Below are positions 20,642 through 64,000 of a stretch of 64,000 nucleotides of DNA, one piece after another. The notes beneath the pieces are model-generated. The model was not told where the DNA came from and made no database searches. It was given only the letters and a program-made list of their open reading frames with translations. How positions within the stretch are numbered: the stretch's first letter is position 1; each line of letters starts with the position of its first letter. Both the position numbers and the translations under genes were made by a program. The DNA lies in the NCBI GenBank assembly GCA_026391775.1, contig JAPLDK010000007.1, positions 1,065-65,064 of the forward strand, read 5' to 3'. Origin of the DNA: Bacteroidota bacterium (GTDB lineage Bacteria; Bacteroidota; Bacteroidia; Bacteroidales; FEN-979).

Positions 20642-21958
20642 TCAGGAGTGTGAAACATTGTTTCGTTTATCGATGAATTTAATGGCCTTACGGTTGCCTT
20701 CAGGGAATTGAACTTTAATGATGTCTTCAGGTTTATGGAATTTTACCTGGGGTGCTACCCTTAGCCGGGCCCTGAAATGATCCTTAATATCCTTCTCCAG
20801 TTCAGAATTGAACTGGTTTGTACCGGCATTGATTATTATTTCGTCAGTTCCTATCTCATTGGTATATACCTCCACATAATAATTTCTGATGTACGGGATA
20901 TTATCAAGGATATCATATAATGCAGGAGGATAGAGAGTAGTGCCCTTGAATTTTATCATCTGTTTCCTGCGTCCGATCACCGGGCCAAGCCTCATTGTAG
21001 TCCTGCCGCAGGCACAGGGCTCTGTATAATGATAACACACATCTCCTGTTTTAAATCTCAGAAGGGGCATTCCCTTCACCCCAATAGTGGTAATGGTGAC
21101 TTCGCCTGCTTGTCCTTCCTGAACGGGATTGCCATTGTCGTCCAGGAATTCAACGATGATCAGTTCAGGGTGATGATGGCCACCAGTCCCTTCTCTGCAT
21201 TCAGTAAAAGTAGTGGCCATTTCGGTGGAGGCATAGGTTGAATATAGTTTCAAAGGCCATTTTCCCAGTATTTTCCTCCCAAGAGCATTCATACTCAAAT
21301 CAGGATTCCTTAAGGGCTCACCAATGCAAACAGCTTTTGTAATGCTGGATGATCGATAGTCTATCCCGTTTTGTTCAGCATATTCAATGATTTTAAGAAT
21401 AAAAGAAGGGACGACTATGATGGCATTGGGGCGGATGCGGTTTATTGTATCCCATTGAAGTTCAGGGATGCCATTGCCCACTCTTACGATTGATGCACCC
21501 AGCATTCTTATACCAAGGAAATATGCCATACCAGCCATAAATCTGCGATCAAGGGTTGTCATTAGCTGGTACAGGTCATCCACAGAACCATCGGCACAGG
21601 TAAAGGAAATGGCTTCATTGTATGCAAGCCGGTCCAGGTCACTGTTGGTCATCGCCACAGTAACCGGATCTCCCATCGTGCCTGAAGTTGTTATATAATC
21701 AACGATATTGTTTTTGGGAACACAAATGAAGTCCTCGTTAAACTGCTGAAGGTGGGCTTTGTCTGTAACGGGAATCCGTATCAGGTCTTCCAGGTGGCTG
21801 ATCTTGCTTATATCAATCGAGTGTTCTCTGAAGAGACTTTTGTAAAAGGCGGAATTAGCACCAACATAGTTTAGTAAATCTCCCAGGGATTCTTCCTGGA
21901 AATTCTTTATCTCTTCAAGTGATTGACGCTCAATAGCAGGAAAAAAGGATCTGGCCAT
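20642..21958 (-). CDS. Phenylacetate-CoA ligase-like adenylate-forming enzyme (PaaK / F390 synthetase family)
   Basis: 438 aa. AMP-binding core TTSGTMGDPV, then YASTEM, RFKTGD and KGTTLYP. The short single-lobe architecture is typical of PaaK-like ligases. Confidence 0.75.
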   Translation of the reverse strand: MARSFFPAIERQSLEEIKNFQEESLGDLLNYVGANSAFYKSLFREHSIDISKISHLEDLIRIPVTDKAHLQQFNEDFICVPKNNIVDYITTSGTMGDPVTVAMTNSDLDRLAYNEAISFTCADGSVDDLYQLMTTLDRRFMAGMAYFLGIRMLGASIVRVGNGIPELQWDTINRIRPNAIIVVPSFILKIIEYAEQNGIDYRSSSITKAVCIGEPLRNPDLSMNALGRKILGKWPLKLYSTYASTEMATTFTECREGTGGHHHPELIIVEFLDDNGNPVQEGQAGEVTITTIGVKGMPLLRFKTGDVCYHYTEPCACGRTTMRLGPVIGRRKQMIKFKGTTLYPPALYDILDNIPYIRNYYVEVYTNEIGTDEIIINAGTNQFNSELEKDIKDHFRARLRVAPQVKFHKPEDIIKVQFPEGNRKAIKFIDKRNNVSHS

Positions 21959-21975
21959 CTGTTTCTTCGTGAATC

Positions 21976-22677
21976 CTAGATTTTAATCCCTACCAGGATC
22001 CTGAATGTGGAAGTATCCAGCCAATATTTTGGGTTATCATCCTGGTTATATGTAAATCTTACCTTGCCCCAATTATACTGGAAAGCAAACAGCATTATTC
22101 TGTACCTGATGCCAAGGCTGACTTCATTTAGTGTGTAATTTGAACCCCACATGCTGTTGTACCATGCTGCAGTCGCATTAACCTTGTATGATAGGTCAAT
22201 CATCAGGTAGTCGACAGGGTTGATGGTCAGGACAGGGCCGAACTTCTGGCCTCCGAAATAATACCAGTATTCATATTTCTTTGATGACTTGGAATTTGGA
22301 GGCAGGGCCTGATCTGTCGGGTTGAAAGATGCCGTAAGAAATGTGGCATCAATTCCGGCTCTCAAATGATGATTGGCAAATGAAGGGCCAATGTATATCA
22401 GGTACCCCAGTTCAAAAACAAATCCGAATTTTGCCTGGTTGAATTTAATTGTATCTATCGTTCCTTTATACGGGTAATAATTCATATGCTGGTTGGCAAA
22501 ATCAACCATAGGGAAAGAACCGCCAAACTTCATGTAAAACCCGCTTTTAATGTGACTTGTAAAAGTTTTTGGTTGAGTAACCGTCGGTTGTGTTTGTCCC
22601 TGGGGAGGCTGATCCTGGGAATAGAGGAAAGTACTTGTAAAAAACACGAATAAAAAAGGCAGAAAAAATTTTTTCAT
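21976..22677 (-). CDS. Putative outer-membrane beta-barrel protein
   Basis: 233 aa. Signal peptide MKKFFLPFLFVFFTSTFLYSQ, a Q/P/T-rich linker and alternating aromatic/polar strands with many Y/F/W/G. No specific family recognised. Confidence 0.45.
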   Translation of the reverse strand: MKKFFLPFLFVFFTSTFLYSQDQPPQGQTQPTVTQPKTFTSHIKSGFYMKFGGSFPMVDFANQHMNYYPYKGTIDTIKFNQAKFGFVFELGYLIYIGPSFANHHLRAGIDATFLTASFNPTDQALPPNSKSSKKYEYWYYFGGQKFGPVLTINPVDYLMIDLSYKVNATAAWYNSMWGSNYTLNEVSLGIRYRIMLFAFQYNWGKVRFTYNQDDNPKYWLDTSTFRILVGIKI

Positions 22678-22726
22678 AATGGATGGTTTATCTCGGGGTT
22701 CATAGGTTTATCGTTTTACAAAGATA

Positions 22727-22734
22727 CAAATGTA
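22727..22734 (-). promoter_or_regulatory. Candidate internal -7 element (TACATTTG)
   Basis: The complement reads TACATTTG. It abuts the sulfotransferase stop codon and lies 49 nt upstream of the ATG at 22677. Confidence 0.3.
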
Positions 22735-23817
22735 TCAGGAATAGGAATATTTCATCATATAGGCTTTTAATTCAGTCTTGATAGCTGTTTTATCATTCTC
22801 TGACAATGAAAAACTGTTTTTCTTGAAGTTGCAGTTAATGGCCATGTATTCCCTTATTTTACTCTCCTGGCGTTCAGAAAATATTAGTCCCAATGCCGAA
22901 TAAATCTGTTTTACGGTCATTACCGGATCATTCTCCAGGTCTTCGAACCGGGTTTCAGCATAAACCCCTGCCGGCAATGTATGCGTTTCGGCACTGATCT
23001 TCTCCATTATAAGGTTAATTACCCTGCATATCTCCGCAATGTTATATTTATGAAGCTCATTGTTCAGGTTATTCTCCTTCTGAAGAATCTCCCACATATT
23101 TATAGTAGATGGAACTACAGAAAACGGATGCCTGTATATCTGAATGAACCTGGCCTTGGGAAAAACCTCAAGAAGCAACCTGATCCTTAATGAATGGAAT
23201 GGGTTTTTAGAGAGGATGATGCCTTTTTGATTATAACCTACTTTGGTAAAAAAGGATTTCAACTGTTCTTTGAGGACTTCGTTTGCTTTGAACGAATTCA
23301 CCTTCTTTACCCATTCCTCTATGAAATAGCGTTCGCTACTTGGAAACAGCAGTTGTTCAAGAGGCGAATAGCCTGTAAGTCTGAAAACTGCATATTCGTC
23401 CTCCTGGGGTTCATCCATTCCTATTTTTACATTATCCATAGGCCTGGTTTCCCTGACGAGGGCTTTCATTATTGGTTTATAATAGGCATGAGAAATAAGC
23501 ATACTGTCAGGTTCAGCAACCTGAAACAAGGTAGGGGCTTTGAACTGTTCATCCAGACTCATCAGTTTAAACAATAAAGTAGTACCTGTGCGCCAGTGTC
23601 CGATAATAAAGACTGGATCCACAGGGCATGGCATTGTTTTAAGACGCTTGCCGTAACGTATATTTTCAATGGAGGCAAAAAGGCTTGACCATGCCGAACT
23701 TTGCAATAAAAAGAGAATTCTCCCTAAACTTCTGGGATTCCAGCTTATTTTATTCCTGGACAGGATACTTATCAGCCGGCCGGATGACATCCCGGCAGTT
23801 ATGTAAGAATGTTTCAA
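22735..23817 (-). CDS. Sulfotransferase family protein
   Basis: 360 aa. PAPS 5'-phosphosulfate loop-like IIGHWRTGTTLLFKLM and 3'-phosphate motif-like QIYRHPFSVVPS. Confidence 0.7.
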   Translation of the reverse strand: MKHSYITAGMSSGRLISILSRNKISWNPRSLGRILFLLQSSAWSSLFASIENIRYGKRLKTMPCPVDPVFIIGHWRTGTTLLFKLMSLDEQFKAPTLFQVAEPDSMLISHAYYKPIMKALVRETRPMDNVKIGMDEPQEDEYAVFRLTGYSPLEQLLFPSSERYFIEEWVKKVNSFKANEVLKEQLKSFFTKVGYNQKGIILSKNPFHSLRIRLLLEVFPKARFIQIYRHPFSVVPSTINMWEILQKENNLNNELHKYNIAEICRVINLIMEKISAETHTLPAGVYAETRFEDLENDPVMTVKQIYSALGLIFSERQESKIREYMAINCNFKKNSFSLSENDKTAIKTELKAYMMKYSYS

Positions 23818-23829
23818 GAATCAGATAAA

Positions 23830-24114
23830 TTATGAATGTTTTCCTTGTTCGGAAACAAGAAATTCTGCAATGCTGTTAATTGACCTTATCACTGAACGAG
23901 CCAGGTTCTGATCGGCTATTCTCAGGTTATATTTACGCTGTATTGCCATGATGATCTCCAATGCGTCGACGGAATCCAGCGTCAGGGCATTTTCCCCGCC
24001 AAATAGTGGTTTGTCATCATCGATTTCTTCAGGCTTTATCCCTGTTATTCCAAGTGTTTCCATTATGAGATTCTTGATCTCCGTCCTCAGTTCTTCCGTC
24101 ACTACCTGGTTCAT
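23830..24114 (-). CDS. Acyl carrier protein
   Basis: 94 aa. Phosphopantetheine attachment motif LTLDSVDALEIIMAIQ. Confidence 0.85.
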   Translation of the reverse strand: MNQVVTEELRTEIKNLIMETLGITGIKPEEIDDDKPLFGGENALTLDSVDALEIIMAIQRKYNLRIADQNLARSVIRSINSIAEFLVSEQGKHS

Positions 24115-24124
24115 GTAAGTTGAT

Positions 24125-25132
24125 TTAATTAATAGTTTTTGACAATCGTTTAAAAAAGTCCTCTTCCAAACCGGCCCTCTGGTAAAGAAGGTCGCTCATC
24201 TGTTTGAATTTATCAGGGCCAAGGTCACGGTTCTTGCCGATCTTTGCTGCAAAAAGTGAGAATTCCCGCCAGCCGTCGCCGATCTCCATAAGTTCTCTTG
24301 CAAAATCTTTCAGTTCGGGTTTGTTTATAATCTCAGATGCCTGCTGAAGAAACGTAGCATACATGAAACGGAATCCCGCTCCACCGGTTCCCTGGTCCTC
24401 GAGAAGAATATTGATCTTCATGACCTCATGTGACAGATGCTCAGTATCTCTGGCAATAGCAGGCCACTCGGTTATTTTTTTAGCAAACAGCTTCATCCCT
24501 TTGATGCCAAGAAAGGGAATGGGTAAACTTAACATGTAAAAGCATGCCTTTTTTATTCCCTTGCGGATGGCTTTATCGTAATCGAAGGTCTCAGGAACGT
24601 ATCTTGGATAAAAAATAGAGCCTTTCGGGGACATGCTCCCCTGGGCGAACCTGCCTTTGTTCATCGATTCGACCGGAAGGTCAACAAGCTTGGGAAAGTA
24701 AGAGTCGCTTACTTTATAAACATCCCCTTCTTTACCAATCGCCACAATGAAATGCACATTTATATGGACGCGTTCCCAGGAAGGCACATAATCCAGATAA
24801 AACATATCGACCTGAGTGGCTGTGGGAATCCCCTTTGAAATAAGCAGGTCAAGTGCTTCCTGGCCTGCTGTCTGGTTTTTGAAATCCTTTGTGAAAAACT
24901 TTACACCAGTCCTTTTTTCAAGATTTTTTCTCATTTGACCAGGTTTGTTCCTGACAATGAAAGTAGGGAAAGCAAAGGATTTCATTTTATGAAAATAACC
25001 GAAAAAGATTCCGCTGGAGATCCCGAATATCATGGGTTCGGTGATCTTCATCCCGGCATGGTTAAGTAAAGAAGTAATGGATCCCGATTCACAATGGGCC
25101 GCCATTTTATGCTGATAATTCTCTATAATCAT
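24125..25132 (-). CDS. BtrH_N-like / DUF4872 two-domain protein (papain-like fold, putative ACP-dependent acyltransferase or hydrolase)
   Basis: The N-terminal AAHCESGSITSLLNHAGMKITEPMIFGISSG pattern matches the butirosin BtrH N-terminal family as I remember it. The C-terminal half (GTGGAGFRFMYATFL) is paralogous to 63468..64000. Start moved to the ATG at 25132. Confidence 0.6.
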   Translation of the reverse strand: MIIENYQHKMAAHCESGSITSLLNHAGMKITEPMIFGISSGIFFGYFHKMKSFAFPTFIVRNKPGQMRKNLEKRTGVKFFTKDFKNQTAGQEALDLLISKGIPTATQVDMFYLDYVPSWERVHINVHFIVAIGKEGDVYKVSDSYFPKLVDLPVESMNKGRFAQGSMSPKGSIFYPRYVPETFDYDKAIRKGIKKACFYMLSLPIPFLGIKGMKLFAKKITEWPAIARDTEHLSHEVMKINILLEDQGTGGAGFRFMYATFLQQASEIINKPELKDFARELMEIGDGWREFSLFAAKIGKNRDLGPDKFKQMSDLLYQRAGLEEDFFKRLSKTIN

Positions 25133-25136
25133 TTCT

Positions 25137-25532
25137 TTATTTTCTGTTTCCTGATTGCCTTCCTGCAACCTCTTCCACCGAAACGTTGAACACTACAGAG
25201 TATTTTTTTAGTGCAGATTCATTGATCCTGGAAAAATTGCCCGGTTTAAGATGCTTTCTTACGATCCACTTCATAATCCCAGCACGTGCCGCAAGTTCTG
25301 AAATAGTAAGGTCTTCCAGTATCATATAATACTCAATGGCATTAATCTCACCTTTTTCTATCCTCTCCCGGAGAGCCTTTTCCAGGTTACGCCGTTTGAA
25401 AAAGTAATCGTCAATATAATTAGCTGAAAGGTAGGAGCCGGTTTGCATGGCCCCATACTTTCCGTCCTCCTTTTCCACATACAGTATTACCTGCTGTTCA
25501 GGGCATTCAGAATATCCATCCTTTTCTTTCAT
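25137..25532 (-). CDS. Hypothetical protein with C-terminal helix-turn-helix-like segment
   Basis: 131 aa. LTISELAARAGIMKWIVRKHLKPGNFSRI resembles an XRE-type HTH. No confident family. Confidence 0.4.
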   Translation of the reverse strand: MKEKDGYSECPEQQVILYVEKEDGKYGAMQTGSYLSANYIDDYFFKRRNLEKALRERIEKGEINAIEYYMILEDLTISELAARAGIMKWIVRKHLKPGNFSRINESALKKYSVVFNVSVEEVAGRQSGNRK

Positions 25533-25552
25533 CGGATCACCCGGTTTGAAGA

Positions 25553-26743: not shown

Positions 26744-26757
26744 CCTGCAAAGGTAAA

Positions 26758-27849: not shown

Positions 27850-27859
27850 TTATTTCTGT

Positions 27860-30250: not shown

Positions 30251-30270
30251 GATGTAAAGATAGGGAGATT

Positions 30271-44439: not shown

Positions 44440-44464
44440 TTCGAGTGTTTTTTTTGCAAAAGTA

Positions 44465-55360: not shown

Positions 55361-55364
55361 GGGA

Positions 55365-58877: not shown

Positions 58878-59138
58878 TTATGCTTTCTTTTGATGCTCGG
58901 TAATATATTCGGCCATTGTACGGATTGAATAAAAGATCTTTTTCCCGTCTTTGGGGTCTTCTATCTTAATACCGTAATTCTTTTCCAGGAGGACAATAAG
59001 TTCCAGGGCATCGATTGAATCCAGGCCCAGGCCTTCCCCGAACAAGGGTGCATCGGGGTTAATATCATCCACAGAAATATCTTCGAGATTAAGCTGTGTA
59101 ATTACTTCTTTTTTAAGTTTGTTGATCAATTCGTCCAT
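58878..59138 (-). CDS. Acyl carrier protein
   Basis: 86 aa. LGLDSIDALELIVLLE. Confidence 0.9.
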   Translation of the reverse strand: MDELINKLKKEVITQLNLEDISVDDINPDAPLFGEGLGLDSIDALELIVLLEKNYGIKIEDPKDGKKIFYSIRTMAEYITEHQKKA

Positions 59139-59791
59139 ATTTTAGTTTCAGTTAAATTCATTAATTCATTAAGCGAAGCTTCAGTAAAAGGCAATGCGCT
59201 GAACCCTGTTTTCAGGACATCAGCATTTTCCTTTTCAACAAGGGAAACCATTGCCCTGAATGTATTGCCGAGAATTTCAACCCAACCGCAAATACAGGCC
59301 TCGGCACGGTTATTATCAAGAAGTTCTGAAACATGATTCTGCAGCTGCATGGGGTTGAACTTTTCGCTGATCAGAAATGCATTTTCCCCTTTCAGGCTGT
59401 GCCGTATACAGATTTCTCCGATGACGATATTTGCCAGGGTATAGACAAAAACCGAAGGGCTTGGGAAATAGGCCGATCTGTTTCTGATACTGGCCTGATG
59501 CGACAGGTCGGATTCCAGGCTGGAACTTGAATTAGCAAGCACCACCGCAAGCGATCCGGGTTTGAATCTACCGGAGTTTTCATGTCTGAGCAGCAATTCG
59601 GCAGACATAAATCCAAGCTTACTCAATGGATCCATTTTGTAAAACTTGGAATACGATATCTGCTCCTGCTTATACAGAGCCTTGATAAACTCGGCAAAAG
59701 TAGCAATTTTTTCCTGATAAAAGATAAGTCGCTTGTTAACAACTACTTTACCTTCCCCGATATAGGTATATGCCGTGATCAGTTTCTCCAT
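59126..59791 (-). CDS. Short KS N-terminal-like / chain-length-factor-like protein (ApeC-like size class)
   Basis: About 221 aa from the ATG at 59791, which is 2 nt after the upstream KS stop. Has a thiolase-like N-terminal half without a Cys nucleophile (LAVVLANSSSSLESD). Sits between a KS and an ACP, as in aryl polyene clusters. Confidence 0.55.
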   Translation of the reverse strand: MEKLITAYTYIGEGKVVVNKRLIFYQEKIATFAEFIKALYKQEQISYSKFYKMDPLSKLGFMSAELLLRHENSGRFKPGSLAVVLANSSSSLESDLSHQASIRNRSAYFPSPSVFVYTLANIVIGEICIRHSLKGENAFLISEKFNPMQLQNHVSELLDNNRAEACICGWVEILGNTFRAMVSLVEKENADVLKTGFSALPFTEASLNELMNLTETKIWTN

Positions 59792-59793
59792 GC

Positions 59794-60966
59794 TCAGGTT
59801 TTTTGAAATACCAGGGCTGCATTGCATCCTCCGAAACCGGAGGCCGTTTTCAGGCAGGTATTAACAGGTTTATGTATTGTTTCGGTCACAACATTGATTC
59901 GCTCAGAGACTCCGGAGACTTCAAAACCCGCTGATTTAAAAAGCACGTTCGCTTTCATTGACAATATGAGAGCTGCTGATTCCATAAGTCCCGATGCACC
60001 AAGCGTATGCCCCCAGTAGCCTTTAAAACTGTTAACATGCACGTGGTTCATTTTGCTCAGAGAAATAGCTTTTGCTTCCATCTCGTCATTGTAAGGTGTT
60101 GCGGTGCCGTGAGCCGAAATATAATCAATTGCCGGATGTTCAAGGCCTGATTCTTCGAGAGCTTTATTTATAGCCATACTGAGCTCTTCACCTGTTCTTG
60201 AAGGGCCGGAAATATGATTGGCATCATTGCTCACCGATCCGCCCATTACAAGAATCCTGTCTTTCCTGTCCTCATTGATATTAGCTGAAAGCACTATTGT
60301 TCCACAGCCTTCGCCCAGTGACAGGCCGGTACGGTGAAGATCAAATGGTTTACAGGGTTCGGGGCTTAATGCCTGGAAAGACTGAAAGCCGGAGATCACA
60401 AATTCGCTGGCAATATCTCCGCCTGTGACAACCGCAGTTTCATATTTGCCGTAACGCAATAATCGGCTGGCCGTTATCAGAGCCATTACCCCCGAAATAC
60501 ATGCATTGCTTATGATCAGCGGAGTGTTTGCAAATCCAAAGAAATCCCGGAGAACCGAAGCCACCGCCCAGAGATAGATACGTTTATGATCGAATTTTGC
60601 CATAAACCGGTCTTCAAGCAAGTCGATATTTCCTTTGGTTGTTGAAAGGACCAGTATGACTTTATCATTCTCCGGTTTTACCGGAATTCCCGCCAAGGTA
60701 TCCGCTAATGAAAGGATCAGCAGTTTCTCCAGCCTGGTGTAATAGCCCGGTTTCTGGTCTTTTTTATAACTCTCAAGGATGGCTTCAAATTTCTGTTCAA
60801 GCCTGGCCGTATCAACCAGGGAAAGGGGGACAGGCTGGGGAGAAAGGTTTCCGTCTTGATTTATCCTGATCCCTGTAGTTCCTGCAAGCAGAGATTCAGC
60901 ATTTTCCAGGGCTGTAAACCCCAGTGAAGAGATGATGTTTTCGGAAATGGCGTAAACGGTTTTCAT
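59794..60966 (-). CDS. Beta-ketoacyl synthase (type II PKS/FAS KS)
   Basis: 390 aa. IISNACISGVMALITAS (Cys), SAHGTATPYND and KGYWGHTLGASGLME. Confidence 0.88.
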   Translation of the reverse strand: MKTVYAISENIISSLGFTALENAESLLAGTTGIRINQDGNLSPQPVPLSLVDTARLEQKFEAILESYKKDQKPGYYTRLEKLLILSLADTLAGIPVKPENDKVILVLSTTKGNIDLLEDRFMAKFDHKRIYLWAVASVLRDFFGFANTPLIISNACISGVMALITASRLLRYGKYETAVVTGGDIASEFVISGFQSFQALSPEPCKPFDLHRTGLSLGEGCGTIVLSANINEDRKDRILVMGGSVSNDANHISGPSRTGEELSMAINKALEESGLEHPAIDYISAHGTATPYNDEMEAKAISLSKMNHVHVNSFKGYWGHTLGASGLMESAALILSMKANVLFKSAGFEVSGVSERINVVTETIHKPVNTCLKTASGFGGCNAALVFQKT

Positions 60967-60976: not shown

Positions 60977-61393
60977 TTATTCAACGCTCCACTTCCTTTT
61001 CCATCCTGTATAAAATTCAGGAGATGTTAATAGCAGATCGCCTTCAGGGGTCAGAAACACCTGGGTTGAACTGCCTGTTGCTACTACTTCGCCATCTTTC
61101 TTTCTTGAGATTTTATACTCGAATACAATCTTGGCCGCTTCAGTAGGGATATATTTTGTCTCGATGATTAGATCATCACCGTAAACCAGAGGTTTTTTAT
61201 AATCGCAGTTCACTTTAACGATAGGGATAATCACATTGTGCCTGTATACATCAAGGTAACCAAGGCTGTATCTGAGACCAAACGATTCACGCCCGTCCTC
61301 GAAATATTTCAGATAATTTCCGTGCCAGACGATTTTCATGGAATCGACCTCACTGAATCTGACTGTAATCTCTTTGCTGTCGGTTAGTGTCAT
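60977..61393 (-). CDS. Hotdog-fold acyl thioesterase (4HBT-like)
   Basis: 138 aa. VRFSEVDSMKIVWHGNYLKYFEDGRESF. Confidence 0.7.
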   Translation of the reverse strand: MTLTDSKEITVRFSEVDSMKIVWHGNYLKYFEDGRESFGLRYSLGYLDVYRHNVIIPIVKVNCDYKKPLVYGDDLIIETKYIPTEAAKIVFEYKISRKKDGEVVATGSSTQVFLTPEGDLLLTSPEFYTGWKRKWSVE

Positions 61394-61394
61394 G

Positions 61395-62696
61395 TTAGCT
61401 ATTTAATGGAGAATTTATCCGGCGGTAAAATAAGGCAATTGAGATCATGACAACAAAAAAGGCAAGAAGTTTGGCTAATGGCGGCAGTATATCCACTAAG
61501 GTAGCCTGCCTCAGGAAAAGGTCAATAAAGCCTACGTGTGCCCAGTTCAATGGGGACCATGTTGCAATAGTTCGCATGACTTCAGGCATTAAGTACACCG
61601 GGACCCATAATCCGCCCAGAGCAGTAAATACCACCACTGAAACAACACCAAAGGCAGCAGCCTGCTGATGTGTTCGGGCAATAGTGCCGACTGCAATTGC
61701 GAAACCCAGGGCTGCAAGGCTTGAGGCAATCATCATGAGCAGGATACCAAAATAATTTGAACCTATGGTCAGGGGAGGAATTTTTGCGAGTGGAAGCACA
61801 AACCTGCCGGCAAGCACCATCAGTATGAACTGTATGATACAAACCATGGTGTATACGCTTACCTTGGCCATAAAAATTGTAAGATATGATACAGGCATTG
61901 TGTATATCCTGACCATACTGCCTTCTTCACGTTCCTTGATCATACTGCCTGTCATCGGGATCACAATAAAAAACATAGCAAACAGAGCCCAGGCCGGAAC
62001 ATTATGCTGGGTGGTTGAAGGCACTGCATTCTCATCCTTGCCTGCAGGAAAAATCTCCGAGAAATAAACTGTTTCCCTGTAATCCGATTTTGGAGGCTGA
62101 TACTGAGGGAACATTTTCTTCAGCTCGGAATTAAAGGAATCGAATATCATTGAAGATTCGATAAACATGCTGTATTCCTTCATTGATGCCATAAAAGCAT
62201 ATTTAAATGTCCCCTTGATCCCCGGGTCGAAATAAACAGCAATATTTATCGAGTCGTTAGACTGAATGTCGAGAAAGGGATTATCGACCGGCATCATGAT
62301 TCCCGAAACGATCTGGGTCACCATCACCTGTACTTTATGCCGTATTATCTTTGTGGACCCTTTTGGTATAATAACAGCGATATTATAGGCTCCTTTCGCA
62401 ATTTCCTCTTTCGCCACCTCACGGGTCAGGTTTATCCCGTCAAGGCTGGTATATACTTTGAAAATATTGGAACTCCTGAGGCCTTCCTGTATTTTGGCAC
62501 CAAGCGTATCATGGTCCTCATCCACAAGCAAAACAGGTATGGATGGGTCCTTTGTAAGGGAGCTCCAGCCCTGTTCCTGGACAAGAGCCAGGATAACGAC
62601 CATGATCATGGGCATAACGAAGAGGATGATCAGTCCCGCCATATCCCTGATCAGGATCAATGATTCTTTTCTGCAAGCGGAAAAAAATTTGAACAT
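61395..62696 (-). CDS. ABC-2 type transporter permease
   Basis: 433 aa. Has an N-terminal TM, a large loop and a C-terminal TM bundle. Lies immediately downstream of the ATPase. Confidence 0.75.
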   Translation of the reverse strand: MFKFFSACRKESLILIRDMAGLIILFVMPMIMVVILALVQEQGWSSLTKDPSIPVLLVDEDHDTLGAKIQEGLRSSNIFKVYTSLDGINLTREVAKEEIAKGAYNIAVIIPKGSTKIIRHKVQVMVTQIVSGIMMPVDNPFLDIQSNDSINIAVYFDPGIKGTFKYAFMASMKEYSMFIESSMIFDSFNSELKKMFPQYQPPKSDYRETVYFSEIFPAGKDENAVPSTTQHNVPAWALFAMFFIVIPMTGSMIKEREEGSMVRIYTMPVSYLTIFMAKVSVYTMVCIIQFILMVLAGRFVLPLAKIPPLTIGSNYFGILLMMIASSLAALGFAIAVGTIARTHQQAAAFGVVSVVVFTALGGLWVPVYLMPEVMRTIATWSPLNWAHVGFIDLFLRQATLVDILPPLAKLLAFFVVMISIALFYRRINSPLNS

Positions 62697-62715
62697 TGCG
62701 CCTTTCTTATCCCTA

Positions 62716-63468
62716 TTAATCTCTTAGGTCCTTACCTGTAAGATGCAGGAAAATGTTTTCAAGGTCCTTGAACTCCGGATGTTCTGCGACAAGTTCGTGT
62801 GGATTTCCCATGGAAATGACTCTGCCCCGGTCAATTATAGCAACGCGTGTGCAGAGTCTCTCTGCTTCCTCCATATAATGCGAGGTATAGATTACAGTAG
62901 TACCCTTCTGGTTTAGTTCTTTAAGATATTCCAGGATAACAACCCTTGACTGAACATCTATACCGACGGTGGGCTCATCCAGAAAAATCACTTTGGGGTC
63001 ATGCAACAGGCCTGCGATCAGGTTGATCCTGCGTTTAATTCCACCCGAACAGTTTGCTATTTTTTTATCTGCATGTTTTTCCAGTCCAAAAACAGCCATC
63101 CCTTCAGCAATTTTCTGCTTCAGGCTTGCGCCTTTGAGGCCGTACATATTGCCGAAGAAAGTGAGATTCTCCCAGGCTGTCAGGGTAGGATAGAGGGCGA
63201 CATCCTGAGGTACCACTCCGATGATTTTCTTTATTTCATTGAGGTTTGAATGAATATCCATACCGTCAATCCTTGCACTTCCCTTGGTGGCCCGAAAGAG
63301 GCCGCATAAAATAGAAATAGTGGTTGTTTTGCCGGCACCATTCGGACCAAGCAATCCGAAGATCTCCCCCTGAAAAATATCAAGAGAGATCCCTTTGATA
63401 GCGGGTTCTTCTGATCCTTTATAAACTTTAACCAGTTCCCTTATTTCTATAATGACCTTATCTGACAT
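62716..63468 (-). CDS. ABC transporter ATP-binding protein
   Basis: 250 aa. Walker A GLLGPNGAGKTTT, signature CSGGIKRRINLIAGL and Walker B VIFLDEPTVGID. Confidence 0.93.
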   Translation of the reverse strand: MSDKVIIEIRELVKVYKGSEEPAIKGISLDIFQGEIFGLLGPNGAGKTTTISILCGLFRATKGSARIDGMDIHSNLNEIKKIIGVVPQDVALYPTLTAWENLTFFGNMYGLKGASLKQKIAEGMAVFGLEKHADKKIANCSGGIKRRINLIAGLLHDPKVIFLDEPTVGIDVQSRVVILEYLKELNQKGTTVIYTSHYMEEAERLCTRVAIIDRGRVISMGNPHELVAEHPEFKDLENIFLHLTGKDLRD

Positions 63469-64000
63469 CAGATTTTAACTTTTCCAATTTGCTTGAATAC
63501 CTGCTCCTCCATCCCTGCGATTTCCATCATCATATCTCCCAATGTTCCATAATCCTCAACAGGCTGTGATGACCTGTTCTTGCAATTTCTGGCACCAAGG
63601 TAAGTAAATTCCCTCCATTTATTGGCTGTACGGCCCATAAGATCGGCAGCATCAAGAATCTCCTTATTGTTAAATGTCTCTCCACTTTCCTTGAGAAACG
63701 AACCAAAGATATATCGGAAACCTGCGCCGCCGGTACCAAAATCCTCAGCCATCCTCAGTATCTGCCCAAGGTAAAATGCTGCTTTCTGGTTGCCATGTTT
63801 TTTAGGCCACTTTTTGATATCCCTGGCCATCACACGCATTCCTTTAATCCCGATGAGCCAGAATGGAACCTTAGTCATTTCATATACGCTTTTTTTGATC
63901 CCCAACTGCACACCGGTCCGGATATCCAGTTCTTTTGGCACATTGTTAATCCAGTACATTTTCCCCTTTGGAGCGAAAGGCCCTTTGGCCCAGCGAACTC
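63468..64000 (-). CDS. BtrH_N/DUF4872-like protein, partial (5' end beyond the window end)
   Basis: The ORF-track M at 63959 is internal. The frame stays open to the window edge (hand translation ...VRWAKGPFAPKGKMYWINNVPKE). The region aligns by eye with the C-terminal half of 24125..25132 (GTGGAGFRYIFGSFL versus GTGGAGFRFMYATFL; LIGIKGMRVMARDIKKWP versus FLGIKGMKLFAKKITEWP). Confidence 0.65.
   Translation of the reverse strand, partial: VRWAKGPFAPKGKMYWINNVPKELDIRTGVQLGIKKSVYEMTKVPFWLIGIKGMRVMARDIKKWPKKHGNQKAAFYLGQILRMAEDFGTGGAGFRYIFGSFLKESGETFNNKEILDAADLMGRTANKWREFTYLGARNCKNRSSQPVEDYGTLGDMMMEIAGMEEQVFKQIGKVKI

What the first reader, a model, noticed from the sequence alone, without database searches (positions are those of the whole stretch)
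20642..64000. Compact cluster of at least 43 kb: aryl-polyene/flexirubin-type type II PKS-FAS core with an accessory set matching no described subtype
About 40 genes are packed with very short gaps or overlaps (ATGA/GTGA-type). All are on the minus strand except one divergent gene pair.

Core components seen directly in the translations:
- four Cys-His-His KS (44465..45688, 55365..56579, 57669..58877, 59794..60966)
- a KAS III-like enzyme
- three Cys-less CLF-like partners
- three ACPs (DSx motifs)
- a divergent FabD-like acyltransferase
- a FabZ-like dehydratase and two 4HBT thioesterases
- a LolA-like carrier and a lipobox lipoprotein
- MMPL exporter, PlsC acyltransferase, GT2, SAM methyltransferases and an ABC-2 transporter

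This parts list follows the known logic of the Gammaproteobacterial aryl polyene (ApeA-R) clusters and the Bacteroidota flexirubin clusters. In those, a polyene acyl chain is built on ACP, esterified to a lipid anchor and moved to the outer membrane.

Components that fit neither cluster type:
- four cobalamin-type radical SAM proteins
- a crotonase pair and an HADH domain
- a CrtI-like oxidoreductase
- a CXXCH protein
- a sulfotransferase
- a C45 Ntn acyltransferase
- two BtrH_N/DUF4872 proteins
- a TonB-dependent receptor

Head-group genes expected for flexirubin (tyrosine ammonia-lyase, DarA) or for APE (chorismate-derived 4-hydroxybenzoate route) are not present in the window. I infer that the product is an envelope-anchored modified acyl or polyene lipid of an undescribed subclass, possibly an anaerobe-adapted variant.
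Basis: partly seen in the sequence, partly recalled or inferred. Interest (0 to 1): 0.85.

Follow-up and report, generated by a model that had tools for sequence, protein, structure and literature searches.

The report
Anaerobe flexirubin-type cluster with radical-SAM add-ons
This is a flexirubin-type outer-membrane pigment gene cluster from an uncultured anaerobic Bacteroidales bacterium that keeps the textbook backbone in the textbook order, lacks the usual resorcinol-forming gene pair, and carries two conserved extra modules rich in B12-type radical SAM enzymes, a variant that I could not find described.

Summary
There are 41 tightly packed genes at 20642-64000 (median gap 7.5 bp), and all but one divergent pair are on the minus strand.

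The cluster is not an unclassifiable aryl-polyene type. It is colinear with the characterised flexirubin (flx/dar) clusters. FlxY, LolA2, LolB2, DarG and DarH pass NCBI's flexirubin-specific models. In close relatives, FlxA (tyrosine ammonia-lyase) and FlxB lie just beyond base 64000.

Two modules are truly extra:
- **Module A (40404-51707):** thioesterase, two crotonases, a StlD/DarB-like enzyme with Cys kept but His→Asn and Asn→Tyr, a radical SAM-HADH fusion, a haem protein, KS/ACP/AT and two more B12-type radical SAM genes.
- **Module B (21976-31978):** a radical SAM, an orphan 128-aa protein, an outer-membrane barrel, an O-methyltransferase, a second DarG/DarH/ACP set and a sulfotransferase.

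Both modules are conserved with the core across dozens of anaerobic Bacteroidota MAGs, also where the genes are rearranged. Canonical DarA/DarB were not found.

The product is unknown. My verdict is a new variant of a known kind.

The parts
20642..21958 (-). FlxY, the flexirubin-type aryl acid CoA ligase (F390-synthetase/PaaK-like)
   Evidence: NCBIfam NF053551 FlxY_rubin scores 709.5 bits against a cutoff of 520. Pfam finds AMP-binding plus AMP-binding_C_2.
21976..22677 (-). Module B: secreted 233-aa protein of unknown family
   Evidence: No Pfam or NCBIfam hit. It has a signal-peptide-like N-terminus. It holds the same position in L072 and L084.
22735..23817 (-). Module B: sulfotransferase
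   Evidence: Pfam Sulfotransfer_3 scores 106 bits. It is conserved next to ACP1 and DarH1 in L033, L035, L072 and L084.
23830..24114 (-). Module B: acyl carrier protein ACP1
   Evidence: Pfam PP-binding. The motif LDSVDALE is present.
24125..25168 (-). DarH1, a BtrH-related acyltransferase
   Evidence: NCBIfam NF053550 DarH_acyl scores 325.8 bits against a cutoff of 300. Pfam finds BtrH_N plus DUF4872.
25137..25532 (-). DarG-family protein (DarG1)
   Evidence: NCBIfam NF053536 DarG_fam scores 71.2 bits against a cutoff of 70.
25553..26743 (-). Module B: ABC-2 permease
   Evidence: Pfam ABC2_membrane_3.
26758..27849 (-). Module B: O-methyltransferase with dimerisation domain
   Evidence: Pfam Methyltransf_2 scores 148 bits, with a Dimerisation domain.
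27860..30250 (-). Module B: 796-aa outer-membrane protein (CarboxypepD_reg N-domain, weak Plug)
   Evidence: Pfam hits; no NCBIfam hit. It is conserved beside the 128-aa protein in L072 and L084.
30271..30657 (-). Module B: orphan 128-aa protein, always next to radical SAM 1
   Evidence: 299 homologues were found; all 120 listed are 118-130 aa (all but one 127-130) and carry no Pfam domain or only the name 'hypothetical protein'. The AF2 model has pLDDT 83 and no PDB fold neighbour.
30704..31978 (-). Module B: B12-type radical SAM 1
   Evidence: Pfam B12-binding 34.6 bits plus Radical_SAM. Motif CIYDCYPC. It is 90% identical in L072.
32046..33797 (-). FlxW-type C45 Ntn acyltransferase
   Evidence: Pfam AAT. 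NCBIfam C45_proenzyme scores 239 bits against a cutoff of 85. FlxW of C. pinensis is annotated the same way.
33742..35241 (-). FlxV-type CrtI/amine-oxidase family flavoenzyme
   Evidence: Pfam Amino_oxidase. [quoted passage not shown]
35238..39143 (-). FlxU-type MMPL exporter + PlsC acyltransferase + methyltransferase fusion
   Evidence: Pfam MMPL, Acyltransferase and Methyltransf_31. FlxU is described the same way.
39151..40341 (-). FlxT-type GT2 + DUF2062
   Evidence: Pfam hits, and position after module A as in the flx order.
40404..41744 (+). Module A: B12-type radical SAM 2, the radical SAM intrinsic to the cassette
   Evidence: Pfam B12-binding 52.9 bits plus Radical_SAM. The best NCBIfam hits, HpnR (133) and BchE (117), are far below their cutoffs. 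Present beside module A in all but three contig-truncated loci of L001-L035 (none within 10 kb in L026). Orthologous to the radical SAM next to the StlD-like gene in L081 (34% over the full length).
41741..43165 (+). Module A: B12-type radical SAM 3, 'ladderane/lipid' family-like
   Evidence: NCBIfam TIGR04072 scores 307.9 bits over the full length against a cutoff of 360. The nearest PDB entry is TsrM, 6wte, at 106 bits.
43202..44122 (-). Module A: FabD/MdcH-like acyltransferase
   Evidence: Pfam Acyl_transf_1. NCBIfam mdcH 132 and fabD 113 bits, both below cutoff.
44131..44541 (-). Module A: ACP2 (the ORF call is probably too long at the 5' end)
   Evidence: Pfam PP-binding. Motif GDSLMFLE. 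The homologue in L079 is 102 aa.
44465..45688 (-). Module A: KS1, a FabF-like ketosynthase with Cys-His-His
   Evidence: NCBIfam PRK07314 scores 440 bits against a cutoff of 387. Active-site motifs are present.
45698..46120 (-). Module A: membrane-anchored or secreted haem-binding protein (CMDCH)
   Evidence: Pfam Haem_bd 50 bits. CXXCH is kept in all 21 orthologues.
46123..48699 (-). Module A: radical SAM 4 fused to a 3-hydroxyacyl-CoA dehydrogenase
   Evidence: Pfam Radical_SAM, 3HCDH_N and 3HCDH, with B12-binding at 27.4 bits, below cutoff. The N-terminal domain is nearest to AprD4, 6fd2. The two domains are fused in about 8 loci and are adjacent separate genes in about 18.
48717..49859 (-). 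Module A: StlD/DarB-like thiolase-fold enzyme, Cys/Asn/Tyr variant
   Evidence: The best sequence and fold match in the PDB is StlD. It fails the DarB models: 84 bits against 550, and 109 against 450. Cys142 is kept, the catalytic His is Asn300 and the Asn is Tyr333, invariant in 31 orthologues.
49856..50545 (-). Module A: crotonase ECHb (short, 229 aa)
   Evidence: Pfam ECH_1. Both catalytic Glu residues align.
50542..51303 (-). Module A: crotonase ECHa
   Evidence: Pfam ECH_1. The GGGLE and PE motifs are kept.
51318..51707 (-). Module A: 4HBT/YbgC-type thioesterase TE1
   Evidence: Pfam 4HBT_2. NCBIfam TIGR00051 scores 65 bits. A TE-like ORF also starts the cassette in L081.
51710..52108 (-). 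FlxS-type hot-dog dehydratase
   Evidence: Weak Pfam ApeI-like and FabA hits, and its position in the flx order.
52213..52890 (-). LolB2 (FlxR), a lipoprotein
   Evidence: NCBIfam NF053540 scores 90.6 bits against a cutoff of 60. Lipobox LSAC.
52829..53479 (-). LolA2 (FlxQ)
   Evidence: NCBIfam NF053544 scores 209 bits against a cutoff of 125.
53466..54434 (-). FlxP-type polysaccharide deacetylase
   Evidence: Pfam Polysacc_deac_1 scores 123 bits.
54287..55444 (-). CLF1, the partner of KS2
   Evidence: Pfam ketoacyl-synt, N-terminal part only. It has no active-site Cys or first His. It is fused to KS2 in L079.
55365..56579 (-). KS2 (Cys-His-His)
56627..57682 (-). CLF2 (FlxO-type)
57669..58877 (-). 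KS3 (FlxN-type, Cys-His-His)
58878..59138 (-). ACP3 (FlxM-type)
   Evidence: Pfam PP-binding. NCBIfam PRK09184 scores 87 bits against a cutoff of 70.
59126..59827 (-). FlxL-type small protein (233 aa)
   Evidence: No Pfam or NCBIfam hit. It sits between KS4 and ACP3, as flxL does.
59794..60966 (-). KS4 (FlxI-type, Cys-His-His)
60977..61393 (-). TE2 (FlxH-type 4HBT thioesterase)
61395..62696 (-). ABC-2 permease of the dar transport set
   Evidence: Pfam hit. It has the same neighbours as in the canonical dar loci L066 and L073.
62716..63468 (-). ABC ATPase of the dar transport set
   Evidence: Pfam ABC_tran.
63468..64000 (-). DarH2, cut by the window end
   Evidence: Pfam DUF4872. The full 341-aa orthologue in L045 scores 391 bits on DarH_acyl, cutoff 300.

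Best explanation
The region is most of a roughly 52-kb flexirubin-type biosynthetic cluster from an uncultured, probably anaerobic, Bacteroidales bacterium.

**Shown by homology and gene order**
1. Tyrosine ammonia-lyase FlxA (just outside the window) and CoA ligase FlxY supply a 4-coumaroyl starter.
2. KS/CLF pairs, ACP3, the FlxB reductase (outside the window) and hot-dog dehydratases extend it to an aryl-polyenoyl thioester.
3. FlxW, FlxE and DarH-type acyltransferases join it to an alcohol or lipid partner.
4. FlxP, FlxT, FlxU, LolA2, LolB2 and the ABC-2 transporter move the product to the outer membrane.

**Inferred**
1. The usual dialkylresorcinol partner made by DarA/DarB is replaced or supplemented by the product of a portable cassette, module A.
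2. In that cassette KS1, ACP2 and AT make a beta-ketoacyl thioester. HADH and the two crotonases convert it to hydroxy and enoyl thioesters, which are the two substrate types a DarB/StlD enzyme joins.
3. A StlD-like Cys/Asn/Tyr enzyme couples or transfers them. B12-type radical SAM enzymes perform oxygen-independent C-C, C-methyl or dehydration chemistry. TE1 releases the product.
4. Module B (radical SAM 1, the 128-aa protein, the O-methyltransferase, the sulfotransferase and a second DarG/DarH/ACP set) tailors and attaches a further group.

The end product would be a methylated, O-methylated and/or sulfated flexirubin-like envelope lipid made without oxygen.
For: **Flexirubin identity**
- Curated equivalog models pass for FlxY, LolA2, LolB2 and DarH, and for the DarG family.
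- In the 86%-identical relative L045, FlxA, FlxB, a second DarG and a full DarH2 also pass.
- Gene order matches flxA-Y of C. pinensis gene for gene.
- LolA2 and LolB2 are reported only in flexirubin loci (PMC11885536).

**Linkage of the extras to the core**
- Module A lies between the FlxS and FlxT positions in 20 or more species-level genomes.
- It stays next to polyene KS/CLF, DarG/DarH, the sulfotransferase and radical SAM 1 in rearranged loci, including a Chlorobiota MAG (L032, L033, L035).
- Module B travels with FlxV, FlxW and FlxY as one block in L072 and L084/L085.
- Radical SAM 4 and HADH are fused in some genomes and adjacent in others.
- A fifth TIGR04072 radical SAM (400 bits, cutoff 360) is fused to the FlxE-type acyltransferase.

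**Missing DarA/DarB**
- No canonical DarB and no homologue of the DarA-position ORF was found in the window or in any variant locus.
- Canonical dar loci have both.

**StlD-like enzyme**
- StlD is the best match by sequence and by fold.

**DarB substrates**
- They are beta-keto and 2-enoyl thioesters (PMC6836626).

**Anaerobic habitat**
- Titles of the MAG records that hold the cluster name, among others, Lac Pavin water-column samples and a SPRUCE sample. That these habitats are anoxic is my own knowledge, not a tool result.
Against: - No product chemistry is available.
- The StlD-like enzyme lacks the catalytic His (His302 in StlD) and Asn, so it may not cyclise at all.
- darAB can lie elsewhere in a genome, as in C. 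pinensis. Only the window and flanks of at most 10 kb could be read, so their absence from the genome is not shown.
- The module A cassette also occurs without flexirubin genes (L081, L086, L088). It can therefore make a product of its own.
- The function of B12-type radical SAM enzymes cannot be read from sequence. The domain nearest to radical SAM 4, AprD4, is not a methyltransferase.
- FlxA and FlxB are seen in relatives, not in this window.
- The Flx letters for genes without equivalog hits rest on position and domain type only.
Confidence: 0.65

Rival explanations
1. There are two or three products rather than one. The flx backbone makes an ordinary aryl polyene. Modules A and B are nested but chemically independent pathways, for example for a methyl-branched, sulfated or glycosylated lipid, that only share export machinery or regulation with it.
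For: - The module A core cassette occurs without flexirubin genes: beside a UDP-glycosyltransferase and sugar-nucleotide genes in L081/L082, alone in L086, and with a MacB-type exporter in L088.
- Module A contains a divergent gene pair, so the region holds at least three transcription units.
- One genome splits the cluster into two loci about 330 kb apart.
Against: - Module A is nested between the FlxS and FlxT positions, with gaps of 2-62 bp, in more than 20 genomes.
- In rearranged loci it still sits with polyene KS/CLF and DarG/DarH.
- Module B is bracketed by FlxW and FlxY and contains DarG, DarH and an ACP, which are parts of the dar system.
- The one canonical function missing from the cluster (DarA/DarB) is the function that the closest relative of module A's signature enzyme performs.
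Confidence: 0.2
2. Module A is a beta-branching cassette of the HMG-CoA-synthase type (donor ACP, AT, decarboxylating KS, HMGS, ECH1 and ECH2) that adds methyl branches to the polyene.
For: - The parts list looks the same: AT, ACP, KS, a thiolase-fold Cys enzyme and two crotonases, all adjacent.
- The two crotonases give weak hits to the PKS crotonase domain model PRK07110 (81 and 96 bits) and to HMGS models (31 and 24 bits).
Against: - KS1 keeps its Cys-His-His triad and scores as FabF, so it is not a decarboxylating KS0.
- Both crotonases keep the two hydratase Glu residues, unlike ECH2 decarboxylases (the ECH2 comparison is from general knowledge of that family).
- The thiolase-fold enzyme matches StlD and KAS III-like condensing enzymes by sequence and fold. 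No HMGS appears in the top 50 fold hits.
- An HADH and a radical SAM have no role in that cassette.
Confidence: 0.07
3. A ladderane-like or otherwise radical-cyclised lipid. The TIGR04072-type radical SAM enzymes act on the ACP-bound conjugated polyene and cyclise it, as proposed for anammox ladderanes.
For: - Radical SAM 3 is closest to TIGR04072 'rSAM_ladder_B12' (308 bits). The FlxE-fused radical SAM in relatives passes that model (400 bits, cutoff 360).
- The anammox and Desulfotalea clusters share a phenylacetate-CoA-ligase-like gene, phytoene-dehydrogenase-like genes, a polysaccharide deacetylase, a GT, FabF paralogues and radical SAM genes with this cluster (PMC2649909).
- antiSMASH 'ladderane' clusters of unknown function are expressed in many anaerobic phyla (PMC9902471).
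Against: - Ladderanes are known only from anammox Planctomycetota. The role of the anammox cluster itself is unproven (PMC10139942).
- The nearest solved relative of radical SAM 3 is the methyltransferase TsrM.
- Nothing in the sequence indicates cyclisation.
Confidence: 0.05
4. Unrelated genes juxtaposed by chance, or an assembly chimera.
For: None specific. The window is probably from a metagenome assembly: its own contig could not be retrieved, and the closest matches are all MAGs.
Against: - The same order is found in dozens of independent assemblies from different studies and habitats.
- G+C is uniform at 0.40-0.46 across the window.
- The genes are tightly packed on one strand.
Confidence: 0.01

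Closest known systems
Flexirubin clusters of Chitinophaga pinensis (flxA-Y, MIBiG BGC0000839) and Flavobacterium johnsoniae (Fjoh_1075-1110, BGC0000838)
   Same: The gene families and order match: TAL, SDR, KS, (ACP), lipid-A-type acyltransferase, DH, [DarG, DarH, ABC], TE, KS, FlxL, ACP, KS, CLF, deacetylase, LolA2, LolB2, DH, GT2, MMPL-PlsC-MT, CrtI-like, C45, CoA ligase. Flexirubin-specific NCBIfam models pass for FlxY, LolA2, LolB2, DarH and DarG, and in relatives for FlxA and FlxB.
   Different: - No DarA or canonical DarB, no FlxK halogenase, no FlxJ, and no FlxX in the part seen.
- An extra KS/CLF pair and a second DarG/DarH/ACP set.
- Module A (11 genes) and module B (10 genes).
- Five B12-type radical SAM domains, one fused to the FlxE-type acyltransferase. 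By my mapping of accession numbers to locus tags, this is the position where F. johnsoniae has darA-darB (inference).
- The supplementary file with the published flx gene tables contains no 'radical', 'B12' or 'enoyl-CoA'; the flx table I read lists no radical SAM, crotonase or HADH.
DarB/StlD ketosynthase-cyclases (dialkylresorcinol and bacterial stilbene biosynthesis)
   Same: They are the best sequence and fold relatives of the 48717-49859 protein (StlD 5gk0/5gk2, E 1.8e-12; Foldseek E 4e-29, TM 0.72-0.77). The active-site Cys is conserved. The protein is surrounded by enzymes able to make beta-keto and 2-enoyl thioesters, which are the DarB substrates.
   Different: - It fails both curated models (84 bits against 550; 109 against 450).
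- The catalytic His is Asn and the Asn is Tyr, invariant in 31 orthologues and kept (Cys and Tyr) in relatives down to 32% identity.
- No DarA aromatase partner is present.
- 'DarA-less' DarB homologues with unknown products are already noted in cyanobacteria (PMC6836626).
Anammox/Desulfotalea 'ladderane-type' type II FAS clusters (TIGR04072 radical SAM, phytoene-dehydrogenase-like, FabF paralogues)
   Same: They share the B12-type radical SAM family TIGR04072, a CrtI/PDH-like flavoenzyme, a PaaK-like CoA ligase, a polysaccharide deacetylase, a GT, multiple FabF paralogues and a dedicated ACP and FabZ. They also occur in anaerobes.
   Different: This cluster has flexirubin-specific TAL, FlxB, FlxY, LolA2, LolB2 and DarG/DarH, plus the crotonase/HADH/StlD-like cassette, which I did not find mentioned for the anammox clusters. 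Its host is Bacteroidota, and no ladderanes are known there.
Arcuflavin (xanthomonadin-dialkylresorcinol hybrid) clusters of Azoarcus sp. BH72
   Same: An aryl polyene is esterified to a resorcinol. The dar set includes a BtrH-like protein, ABC transporter genes, an ACP and a KS.
   Different: The Azoarcus starter comes from chorismate (XanB2), and canonical DarA/DarB are present. No radical SAM genes are listed.
AprD4/AprD3 (radical SAM diol dehydratase plus NAD(P)H reductase, apramycin pathway)
   Same: The N-terminal domain of the 858-aa fusion is nearest in the PDB to AprD4 (55 bits). Like AprD4, it is paired with a nicotinamide-dependent dehydrogenase (the AprD3 partnership is from my own knowledge).
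   Different: The similarity is low. The partner here is a 3-hydroxyacyl-CoA dehydrogenase rather than an SDR, and the substrate would be an acyl thioester rather than an aminoglycoside.

Membership tests
Flexirubin-type (flx/dar) biosynthetic gene cluster | FlxY-type aryl acid CoA ligase | tested here: met
   NF053551 scores 709.5 bits against a cutoff of 520.
Flexirubin-type (flx/dar) biosynthetic gene cluster | FlxA tyrosine ammonia-lyase and FlxB ketoreductase | tested here: inconclusive
   Neither is in the window, which ends inside DarH2. In L045 (86% identical ABC-2 permease, same gene order), FlxA scores 822 bits (cutoff 700) and FlxB 397 (cutoff 340), 6.6-8.9 kb upstream of that ABC-2 permease gene. 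The window's own contig could not be extended.
Flexirubin-type (flx/dar) biosynthetic gene cluster | Type II KS/CLF pairs, dedicated ACP, hot-dog dehydratases and 4HBT thioesterase | tested here: met
   Pfam hits and active-site motifs.
Flexirubin-type (flx/dar) biosynthetic gene cluster | LolA2/LolB2 pair specific to flexirubin loci | tested here: met
   NF053544 scores 209 bits (cutoff 125) and NF053540 scores 90.6 (cutoff 60). Their specificity is stated in PMC11885536.
Flexirubin-type (flx/dar) biosynthetic gene cluster | Export and anchoring set FlxP, FlxT, FlxU, plus FlxV and FlxW | tested here: met
   The domain architectures and order match the C. pinensis table. The match is by domain type and position; no pairwise comparison with the C. 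pinensis proteins was made.
Flexirubin-type (flx/dar) biosynthetic gene cluster | DarG/DarH accessory proteins with an ABC transporter | tested here: met
   DarH scores 325.8 bits (cutoff 300) and the DarG family 71.2 (cutoff 70). A second set lies at the window end.
Flexirubin-type (flx/dar) biosynthetic gene cluster | DarA aromatase and DarB cyclase making the dialkylresorcinol | tested here: not met
   The DarB models fail for the only candidate (84 bits against 550; 109 against 450). Its His and Asn are replaced. The DarA-position ORFs of four canonical loci have no tblastn hit (E < 0.01) in the window or in any variant locus. The genes could still lie elsewhere in the genome.
Flexirubin-type (flx/dar) biosynthetic gene cluster | The product is an aryl-polyene carboxylate esterified to a dialkylresorcinol (alkali colour shift) | not testable with these tools
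   This needs chemistry on cells or on a heterologous host.
Gammaproteobacterial aryl polyene (ApeA-R) cluster | Ape-type gene set with a 4-hydroxybenzoate starter and no ammonia-lyase | tested here: not met
   Flexirubin-specific equivalogs pass instead, and a TAL is present in relatives. The ApeI-like Pfam hit is below its cutoff (25.5 bits against 28.5). The shared logic (ligase, KS/CLF, DH, TE, LolA-like, MMPL, GT) does hold.
TIGR04072 'lipid biosynthesis (ladderane) B12-binding/radical SAM protein' | Score at or above the curated cutoff of 360 bits | tested here: not met
   The window protein 41741-43165 scores 307.9 bits over the full length. The FlxE-fused radical SAM of relative L045 passes at 399.6 bits.
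Class B (cobalamin-dependent) radical SAM enzymes | CxxxCxxC cluster motif plus an N-terminal B12-binding domain | tested here: met
   The motif is present in all four proteins and conserved in their orthologues. The B12-binding Pfam domain passes in three (34.6, 52.9 and 46.7 bits against 32.1) and falls below the cutoff in the HADH fusion (27.4).
Class B (cobalamin-dependent) radical SAM enzymes | Cobalamin binding and methyl transfer | not testable with these tools
   The nearest solved relatives include both methyltransferases (TsrM, TokK) and a non-methylating dehydratase (AprD4).
DarB/StlD ketosynthase-cyclase | Cys-His-Asn catalytic residues and a score above the family cutoff | tested here: not met
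   Only the Cys is kept; His is replaced by Asn and Asn by Tyr. The models fail. The fold is nevertheless closest to StlD.
HMG-CoA-synthase beta-branching cassette | HMGS, a decarboxylating KS0, and an ECH1 dehydratase with an ECH2 decarboxylase | tested here: not met
   The HMGS models score 31 and 24 bits against cutoffs of 244 and 360. KS1 keeps Cys-His-His. Both crotonases keep the hydratase Glu residues.

The most novel reading that the evidence does not exclude
Anaerobic Bacteroidota make a so far unseen class of outer-membrane aryl-polyene lipids.
- Radical SAM enzymes of the 'ladderane' family (one of them fused to the acyltransferase that handles the ACP-bound polyene) methylate or cyclise the conjugated chain.
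- A portable cassette built around a Cys/Asn/Tyr StlD-like enzyme, a B12-type radical SAM and beta-oxidation-type enzymes is an oxygen-independent route to the ring or alcohol partner, replacing DarA/DarB.
- If so, this cluster would give a genetically simpler model for the unproven anammox radical SAM chemistry, and a new candidate source of lipid biomarkers in anoxic waters.
Probability: 0.15. Interest if true: 0.85.

Novelty: new variant of a known kind. Interest (0 to 1): 0.6.

Why it matters
- **Unexpected hosts.** Flexirubins are treated as pigments of aerobic Bacteroidota, made by a fatty-acid-like pathway with no radical chemistry. Here the same backbone is present in dozens of uncultured species whose MAG records name Lac Pavin water-column, SPRUCE and other environmental samples, habitats I take to be anoxic.
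- **Radical SAM on acyl lipids.** The backbone is tied to five B12-type radical SAM domains. [quoted passage not shown]
- **Link to 'ladderane-like' clusters.** The cluster connects these unexplained clusters, which genome-mining tools report in many anaerobes, to a pathway whose other steps are understood. That narrows what the radical SAM enzymes can act on.
- **A new enzyme clade.** The work defines a small, sharply conserved clade of StlD/DarB-like enzymes with an altered active site. Only 34 clusters at 50% identity reach E ≤ 1e-30 among 1.84 billion representatives. The clade comes with a portable seven- to nine-gene cassette, which is a clear target for heterologous expression.
- **Limits.** The product is unknown and no cultured host was found.

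Tried and rejected
- **Extending the window.** Exact look-ups of three proteins near the window end returned only 1-kb read assemblies or nothing. Relatives were used instead.
- **RNA elements.** The Rfam scan found no riboswitch or other RNA, and no cobalamin riboswitch near the outer-membrane barrel gene.
- **Promoters and terminators.** A scan around the divergent pair gave counts no better than shuffled sequence and nothing in the convergent gap. The tool does not model Bacteroidota promoters.
- **The 128-aa protein.** It was tested as a possible small cyclase or aromatase. The model is confident (pLDDT 83), but the best PDB match has E 0.013 and TM 0.3, so there is no lead.
- **HMGS beta-branching reading of module A.** Rejected on active-site and fold grounds.
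- **Gammaproteobacterial APE membership.** Rejected in favour of flexirubin.
- **Literature.** No paper in the library contains both 'flexirubin' and 'radical SAM'. A search combining aryl polyene, radical SAM and Bacteroid terms gave only surveys.
- **Not done.**
  - The Flx proteins without equivalog models were not compared pairwise with the C. pinensis or F. johnsoniae proteins, because those sequences were not at hand.
  - The third large protein search was left unused, because its top-120 listing would again have been filled with close MAG relatives.

Full report
**1. Observation**

The ORF list and Pfam scans show 41 genes from 20642 to the window end. All are on the minus strand except 40404-41744 and 41741-43165. 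The median gap is 7.5 bp, and 33 of 40 gaps are 20 bp or less or are overlaps. G+C is even across the window at 0.40-0.46.

Below about 19.9 kb lie housekeeping genes (uvrB, mutL, two rhomboids, an amidohydrolase) and a polysaccharide locus. The 3' border at FlxY is therefore real. The 5' side is cut by the window: the last ORF is the C-terminal half of a DarH protein.

- KS1-KS4 have Cys-His-His.
- The three ACPs have DSx motifs, the haem protein has CMDCH, and all four radical SAM proteins have CxxxCxxC.
- Only two proteins are clear CLFs. One of them has a Cys in the aligned column.
- The B12-domain hit of the HADH fusion is below Pfam's cutoff.
- The 'TonB receptor' shows only a CarboxypepD_reg domain and a weak Plug match.

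**2. What kind of cluster it is**

NCBIfam holds flexirubin-specific models, and five window proteins pass them.

| Protein | Coordinates | Bits | Cutoff |
|---|---|---|---|
| FlxY | 20642-21958 | 709.5 | 520 |
| DarH | 24125-25168 | 325.8 | 300 |
| DarG family | 25137-25532 | 71.2 | 70 |
| LolB2 | 52213-52890 | 90.6 | 60 |
| LolA2 | 52829-53479 | 209 | 125 |

LolA2 and LolB2 are reported to occur only in loci for flexirubin-like pigments (PMC11885536).

The published table of the Chitinophaga pinensis cluster (PMC3992019 supplement) gives this order:
- flxA TAL, B SDR, C KS, D ACP, E lipid-A acyltransferase, F dehydratase, H thioesterase, I KS
- L small condensing-like protein, M ACP, N KS, O CLF, P deacetylase, Q LolA, R (LolB2), S dehydratase
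- T GT2, U MMPL+acyltransferase+methyltransferase, V 'retinol 13,14-reductase' (CrtI family), W C45 acyltransferase, Y CoA ligase

The window follows this order from H to Y.

The missing head of the cluster is visible in metagenome contigs whose ABC-2 permease is 81-88% identical and whose downstream genes are syntenic with the window. In L045 the genes upstream of DarH2 are:
- FlxA (822 bits, cutoff 700)
- FlxB (397 bits, cutoff 340)
- a KS
- a 777-aa fusion of a lipid-A-type acyltransferase with a TIGR04072 radical SAM (400 bits, cutoff 360)
- a FabZ-like protein
- a second DarG (108 bits, cutoff 70)

The whole cluster is therefore about 52 kb, running from FlxA to FlxY.

**3. What is canonical and what is extra**

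- The CrtI-like enzyme corresponds to FlxV.
- The C45 Ntn acyltransferase corresponds to FlxW.
- The BtrH_N/DUF4872 proteins are DarH. A BtrH-like gene with ABC transporter, ACP and KS genes is also part of the Azoarcus dar cluster (PMC3949708).

Two blocks and one extra pair are not in the canonical tables.
- **Module A (40404-51707)** lies between the FlxS and FlxT positions. It holds TE1, two crotonases, a StlD/DarB-like enzyme, a radical SAM-HADH fusion, a haem-binding protein, KS1, ACP2, a FabD-like AT and the divergent radical SAM pair.
- **Module B (21976-31978)** lies between FlxW and FlxY. It holds radical SAM 1, a 128-aa orphan protein, an outer-membrane protein, an O-methyltransferase, an ABC-2 permease, DarG1, DarH1, ACP1, a sulfotransferase and a secreted 233-aa protein.
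- **An additional KS/CLF pair** is also present.

The supplementary file with the published flx gene tables contains no occurrence of 'radical', 'B12' or 'enoyl-CoA'. The canonical oxygen-dependent halogenase FlxK is absent here.

**4. Are the extras part of the same system?**

The radical SAM-HADH protein was found in 40 species-representative genomes. About 26 of these hold both domains, and all are MAGs. Nearly all are labelled Bacteroidota, Bacteroidales, Prolixibacteraceae or Draconibacterium, and their record titles name, among others, Lac Pavin water-column samples and a SPRUCE sample.

- **Same order in close relatives.** In L001-L022 the order KS3 ... LolA2-LolB2-DH-[module A]-GT2-MMPL is the same as in the window.
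- **Same partners after rearrangement.** In more distant genomes (L025-L035, including a Chlorobiota and a Marinilabiliales MAG) the order is rearranged. The genes TE1-ECHa-ECHb-StlD-like-HADH-KS1, AT-ACP2 and radical SAM 2 still lie with polyene KS/CLF, the O-methyltransferase, DarG, DarH, ACP1, the sulfotransferase and radical SAM 1.
- **Module B moves as one block.** It travels with FlxV, FlxW and FlxY in L072 (radical SAM 1 is 90% identical) and in L084/L085.
- **One split genome.** In one genome the two halves of the cluster lie about 330 kb apart on the same contig.
- **Fusion and split.** Radical SAM 4 and HADH are one protein in about 8 loci and adjacent genes in about 18.
- **Motifs kept.** All radical SAM orthologues keep the cluster motif, and all 21 haem proteins keep CXXCH.

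Conservation through rearrangement, together with the fusions, argues for functional coupling rather than neighbourhood by chance.

**5. The missing DarA/DarB and the StlD-like enzyme**

Canonical dar loci recovered in the same scan (L066, L073, L077, L078) have a conserved 284-319-aa ORF in the DarA position. It is followed by a DarB that passes the curated models (558 bits against 550; 578 against 450), then DarG, DarH, the ABC transporter and an ACP. The DarA-position ORFs have no tblastn hit (E < 0.01) in the window or in any variant locus.

The only DarB-like protein in the window (48717-49859) scores 84 and 109 bits on those models. Its best PDB match by sequence is StlD (E 1.8e-12, full length). 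Its best match by fold is also StlD, using an AF2 model with pLDDT 78.5 (Foldseek E 4e-29, TM 0.72-0.77).

- The nucleophilic Cys is kept (HANCTSAYK).
- The catalytic His is Asn (QVNFPSKH), and the Asn is Tyr (MGYIGPPM).
- These residues are invariant in 31 orthologues, while canonical DarB keeps Cys/His/Asn.

The family is narrow. A reading of 1.84 billion representatives found 34 clusters at E ≤ 1e-30. Full-length relatives down to 32% identity keep the Cys and the Tyr. Among 5.8 billion proteins there are 1184 hits. The best 120 are at least 71% identical and are named only 'ketoacyl-ACP synthase III family'.

By my mapping of accession numbers to locus tags, F. johnsoniae has darA-darB between FlxE and FlxF. 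That is the position where the variant has a radical SAM domain fused to FlxE. This mapping is an inference.

**6. A portable cassette**

Distant members of the Cys/Asn/Tyr clade sit in the same company elsewhere.

| Locus | Identity to window protein | Gene order |
|---|---|---|
| L081/L082 | 40% | TE-like, ECH, StlD-like, B12 radical SAM (orthologue of radical SAM 2, 34%), HADH, KS (53% to KS1), then a UDP-glycosyltransferase, a flavodoxin and sugar-nucleotide genes |
| L086 | 48% | KS, ACP, StlD-like, B12 radical SAM, AT, HADH, ECH |
| L088 | 40% | KS, ACP, PPTase, StlD-like, ECH, a MacB-type exporter, AT and a B12 radical SAM |

The unit KS + ACP + AT + StlD-like + crotonase + HADH + B12-type radical SAM therefore works as a unit of its own. 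Here it has been recruited into a flexirubin cluster.

**7. How it most likely works**

*Shown by homology.* FlxA and FlxY provide 4-coumaroyl-CoA; these activities were demonstrated for the C. pinensis enzymes. KS/CLF, ACP, FlxB and the dehydratases build an aryl polyene. Acyltransferases and the FlxP/T/U, LolA2/LolB2 and ABC systems attach and export it.

*Inferred for module A.*
1. KS1, ACP2 and AT make a beta-ketoacyl thioester.
2. HADH, acting as a ketoreductase, and the crotonases, which both keep the hydratase Glu pair, give 3-hydroxy and 2-enoyl thioesters.
3. These are the two substrate classes that DarB/StlD enzymes join into a carboxy-cyclohexanedione, which DarA then aromatises (PMC6836626).
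4. The StlD-like enzyme would couple them, or transfer one of them.
5. A radical SAM would supply the step that DarA performs, or would add methyl groups.

The nearest solved relatives of the radical SAM proteins are:
- the sp2-C-methyltransferase TsrM for radical SAM 3
- the diol dehydratase AprD4 for the HADH-fused domain
- nothing informative for radical SAM 1 and 2

*Inferred for module B.* It adds a second ACP/DarH acyl transfer, an O-methylation and a sulfation.

I put the flexirubin-type assignment at about 0.9, the integration of the modules into one product at about 0.65, and the specific 'DarA/DarB replacement' role at about 0.35-0.4.

**8. Rivals**

The alternatives are independent nested pathways (0.2), an HMGS-type beta-branching cassette (0.07), a radical-cyclised ladderane-like lipid (0.05) and a chance or chimeric arrangement (0.01). 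The evidence for and against each is given in the rival explanations.

**9. Comparison with what is known, and novelty**

The kind of cluster is known: Brinkmann et al. count 268 flexirubin-type clusters in five Bacteroidetes classes and at least five families (PMC9248904). Clusters that combine type II FAS genes, a PaaK-like ligase, phytoene-dehydrogenase-like genes, a deacetylase, a GT and radical SAM genes are also known. They occur in anammox bacteria and Desulfotalea (PMC2649909) and are flagged as 'ladderane' in many anaerobes, without a known function (PMC9902471). The role of the anammox cluster itself is unproven (PMC10139942).

Three things were not found described:
- a canonical flexirubin backbone joined to these radical SAM families
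- the Cys/Asn/Tyr StlD-like cassette
- module B

No paper in the searchable library contains both 'flexirubin' and 'radical SAM'. I therefore rate it a new variant of a known kind.

**10. Limits**

- No chemistry is available.
- The window's genome beyond 64 kb is unseen.
- darAB could lie elsewhere in the genome, as they do in C. pinensis.
- Flx letters for genes without equivalog models rest on position and domain type.
- No cultured host appeared among the hits.

Noticed in passing
window 540-9664: A polysaccharide/capsule-type locus. It holds a GT2, a Wzy_C-type polymerase or ligase, an 895-aa LysM protein and an OEP-family protein. It also has a sugar transferase (Bac_transf) with an N-terminal response-regulator receiver domain, followed by a stand-alone response regulator.
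   Followed up: no
window 12940-14690: Two tandem rhomboid-family genes overlap by 4 bp, between an Exo_endo_phos gene and mutL. The first carries a C-terminal DUF6576.
   Followed up: no
window 16597-17058 (+): A 153-aa ORF with a TTG start matches only the first half of the Cpn10 (GroES) profile. It has no groEL beside it and overlaps the DUF6580 gene on the other strand. The start may be mis-called, or the gene may be a remnant.
   Followed up: no
window 30271-30657: An orphan 128-aa protein with 299 homologues; all 120 listed are 118-130 aa (all but one 127-130), and the 18 aligned are 65-89% identical. It has no family assignment. The predicted fold is confident but has no PDB neighbour. 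In every locus I read that covers it, it lies beside radical SAM 1.
   Followed up: yes
window 46123-48699; L007-L021, L079: The radical SAM domain and the HADH domain are one protein in the window and its closest relatives. In most other genomes they are two adjacent, overlapping genes.
   Followed up: yes
L079 3503-5827: KS2 and its CLF partner are fused into one 774-aa protein in a 74%-identical relative.
   Followed up: no
L079 and L084 (ENA ctg45429l, 838 kb): In this genome the cluster is split. The part from the polyene KS genes to FlxU, including module A, lies at 16-37 kb. FlxV, FlxW, module B and FlxY lie at 364-384 kb, and here an extra lipid-A-type acyltransferase gene sits inside module B.
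   Followed up: partly
L081/L082, L086, L088: Cassettes of KS, ACP, AT, StlD-like Cys/Asn/Tyr enzyme, crotonase, HADH and B12-type radical SAM occur outside any flexirubin context. One sits with a UDP-glycosyltransferase and sugar-nucleotide genes, and one with a MacB-type exporter and a PPTase.
   Followed up: partly
window 44131-44541, 53466-54434, 54287-55444: The longest-ORF calls for ACP2, the deacetylase and CLF1 overlap their upstream neighbours by 77-148 bp, so their 5' ends are probably too long. The homologues in L079 are 102 aa (ACP2) and 269 aa (deacetylase).
   Followed up: partly
window 19929-20546: A secreted 205-aa protein with no family hit lies directly downstream of FlxY, 95 bp away. 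Whether it belongs to the cluster could not be judged, because no related locus covers it.
   Followed up: no
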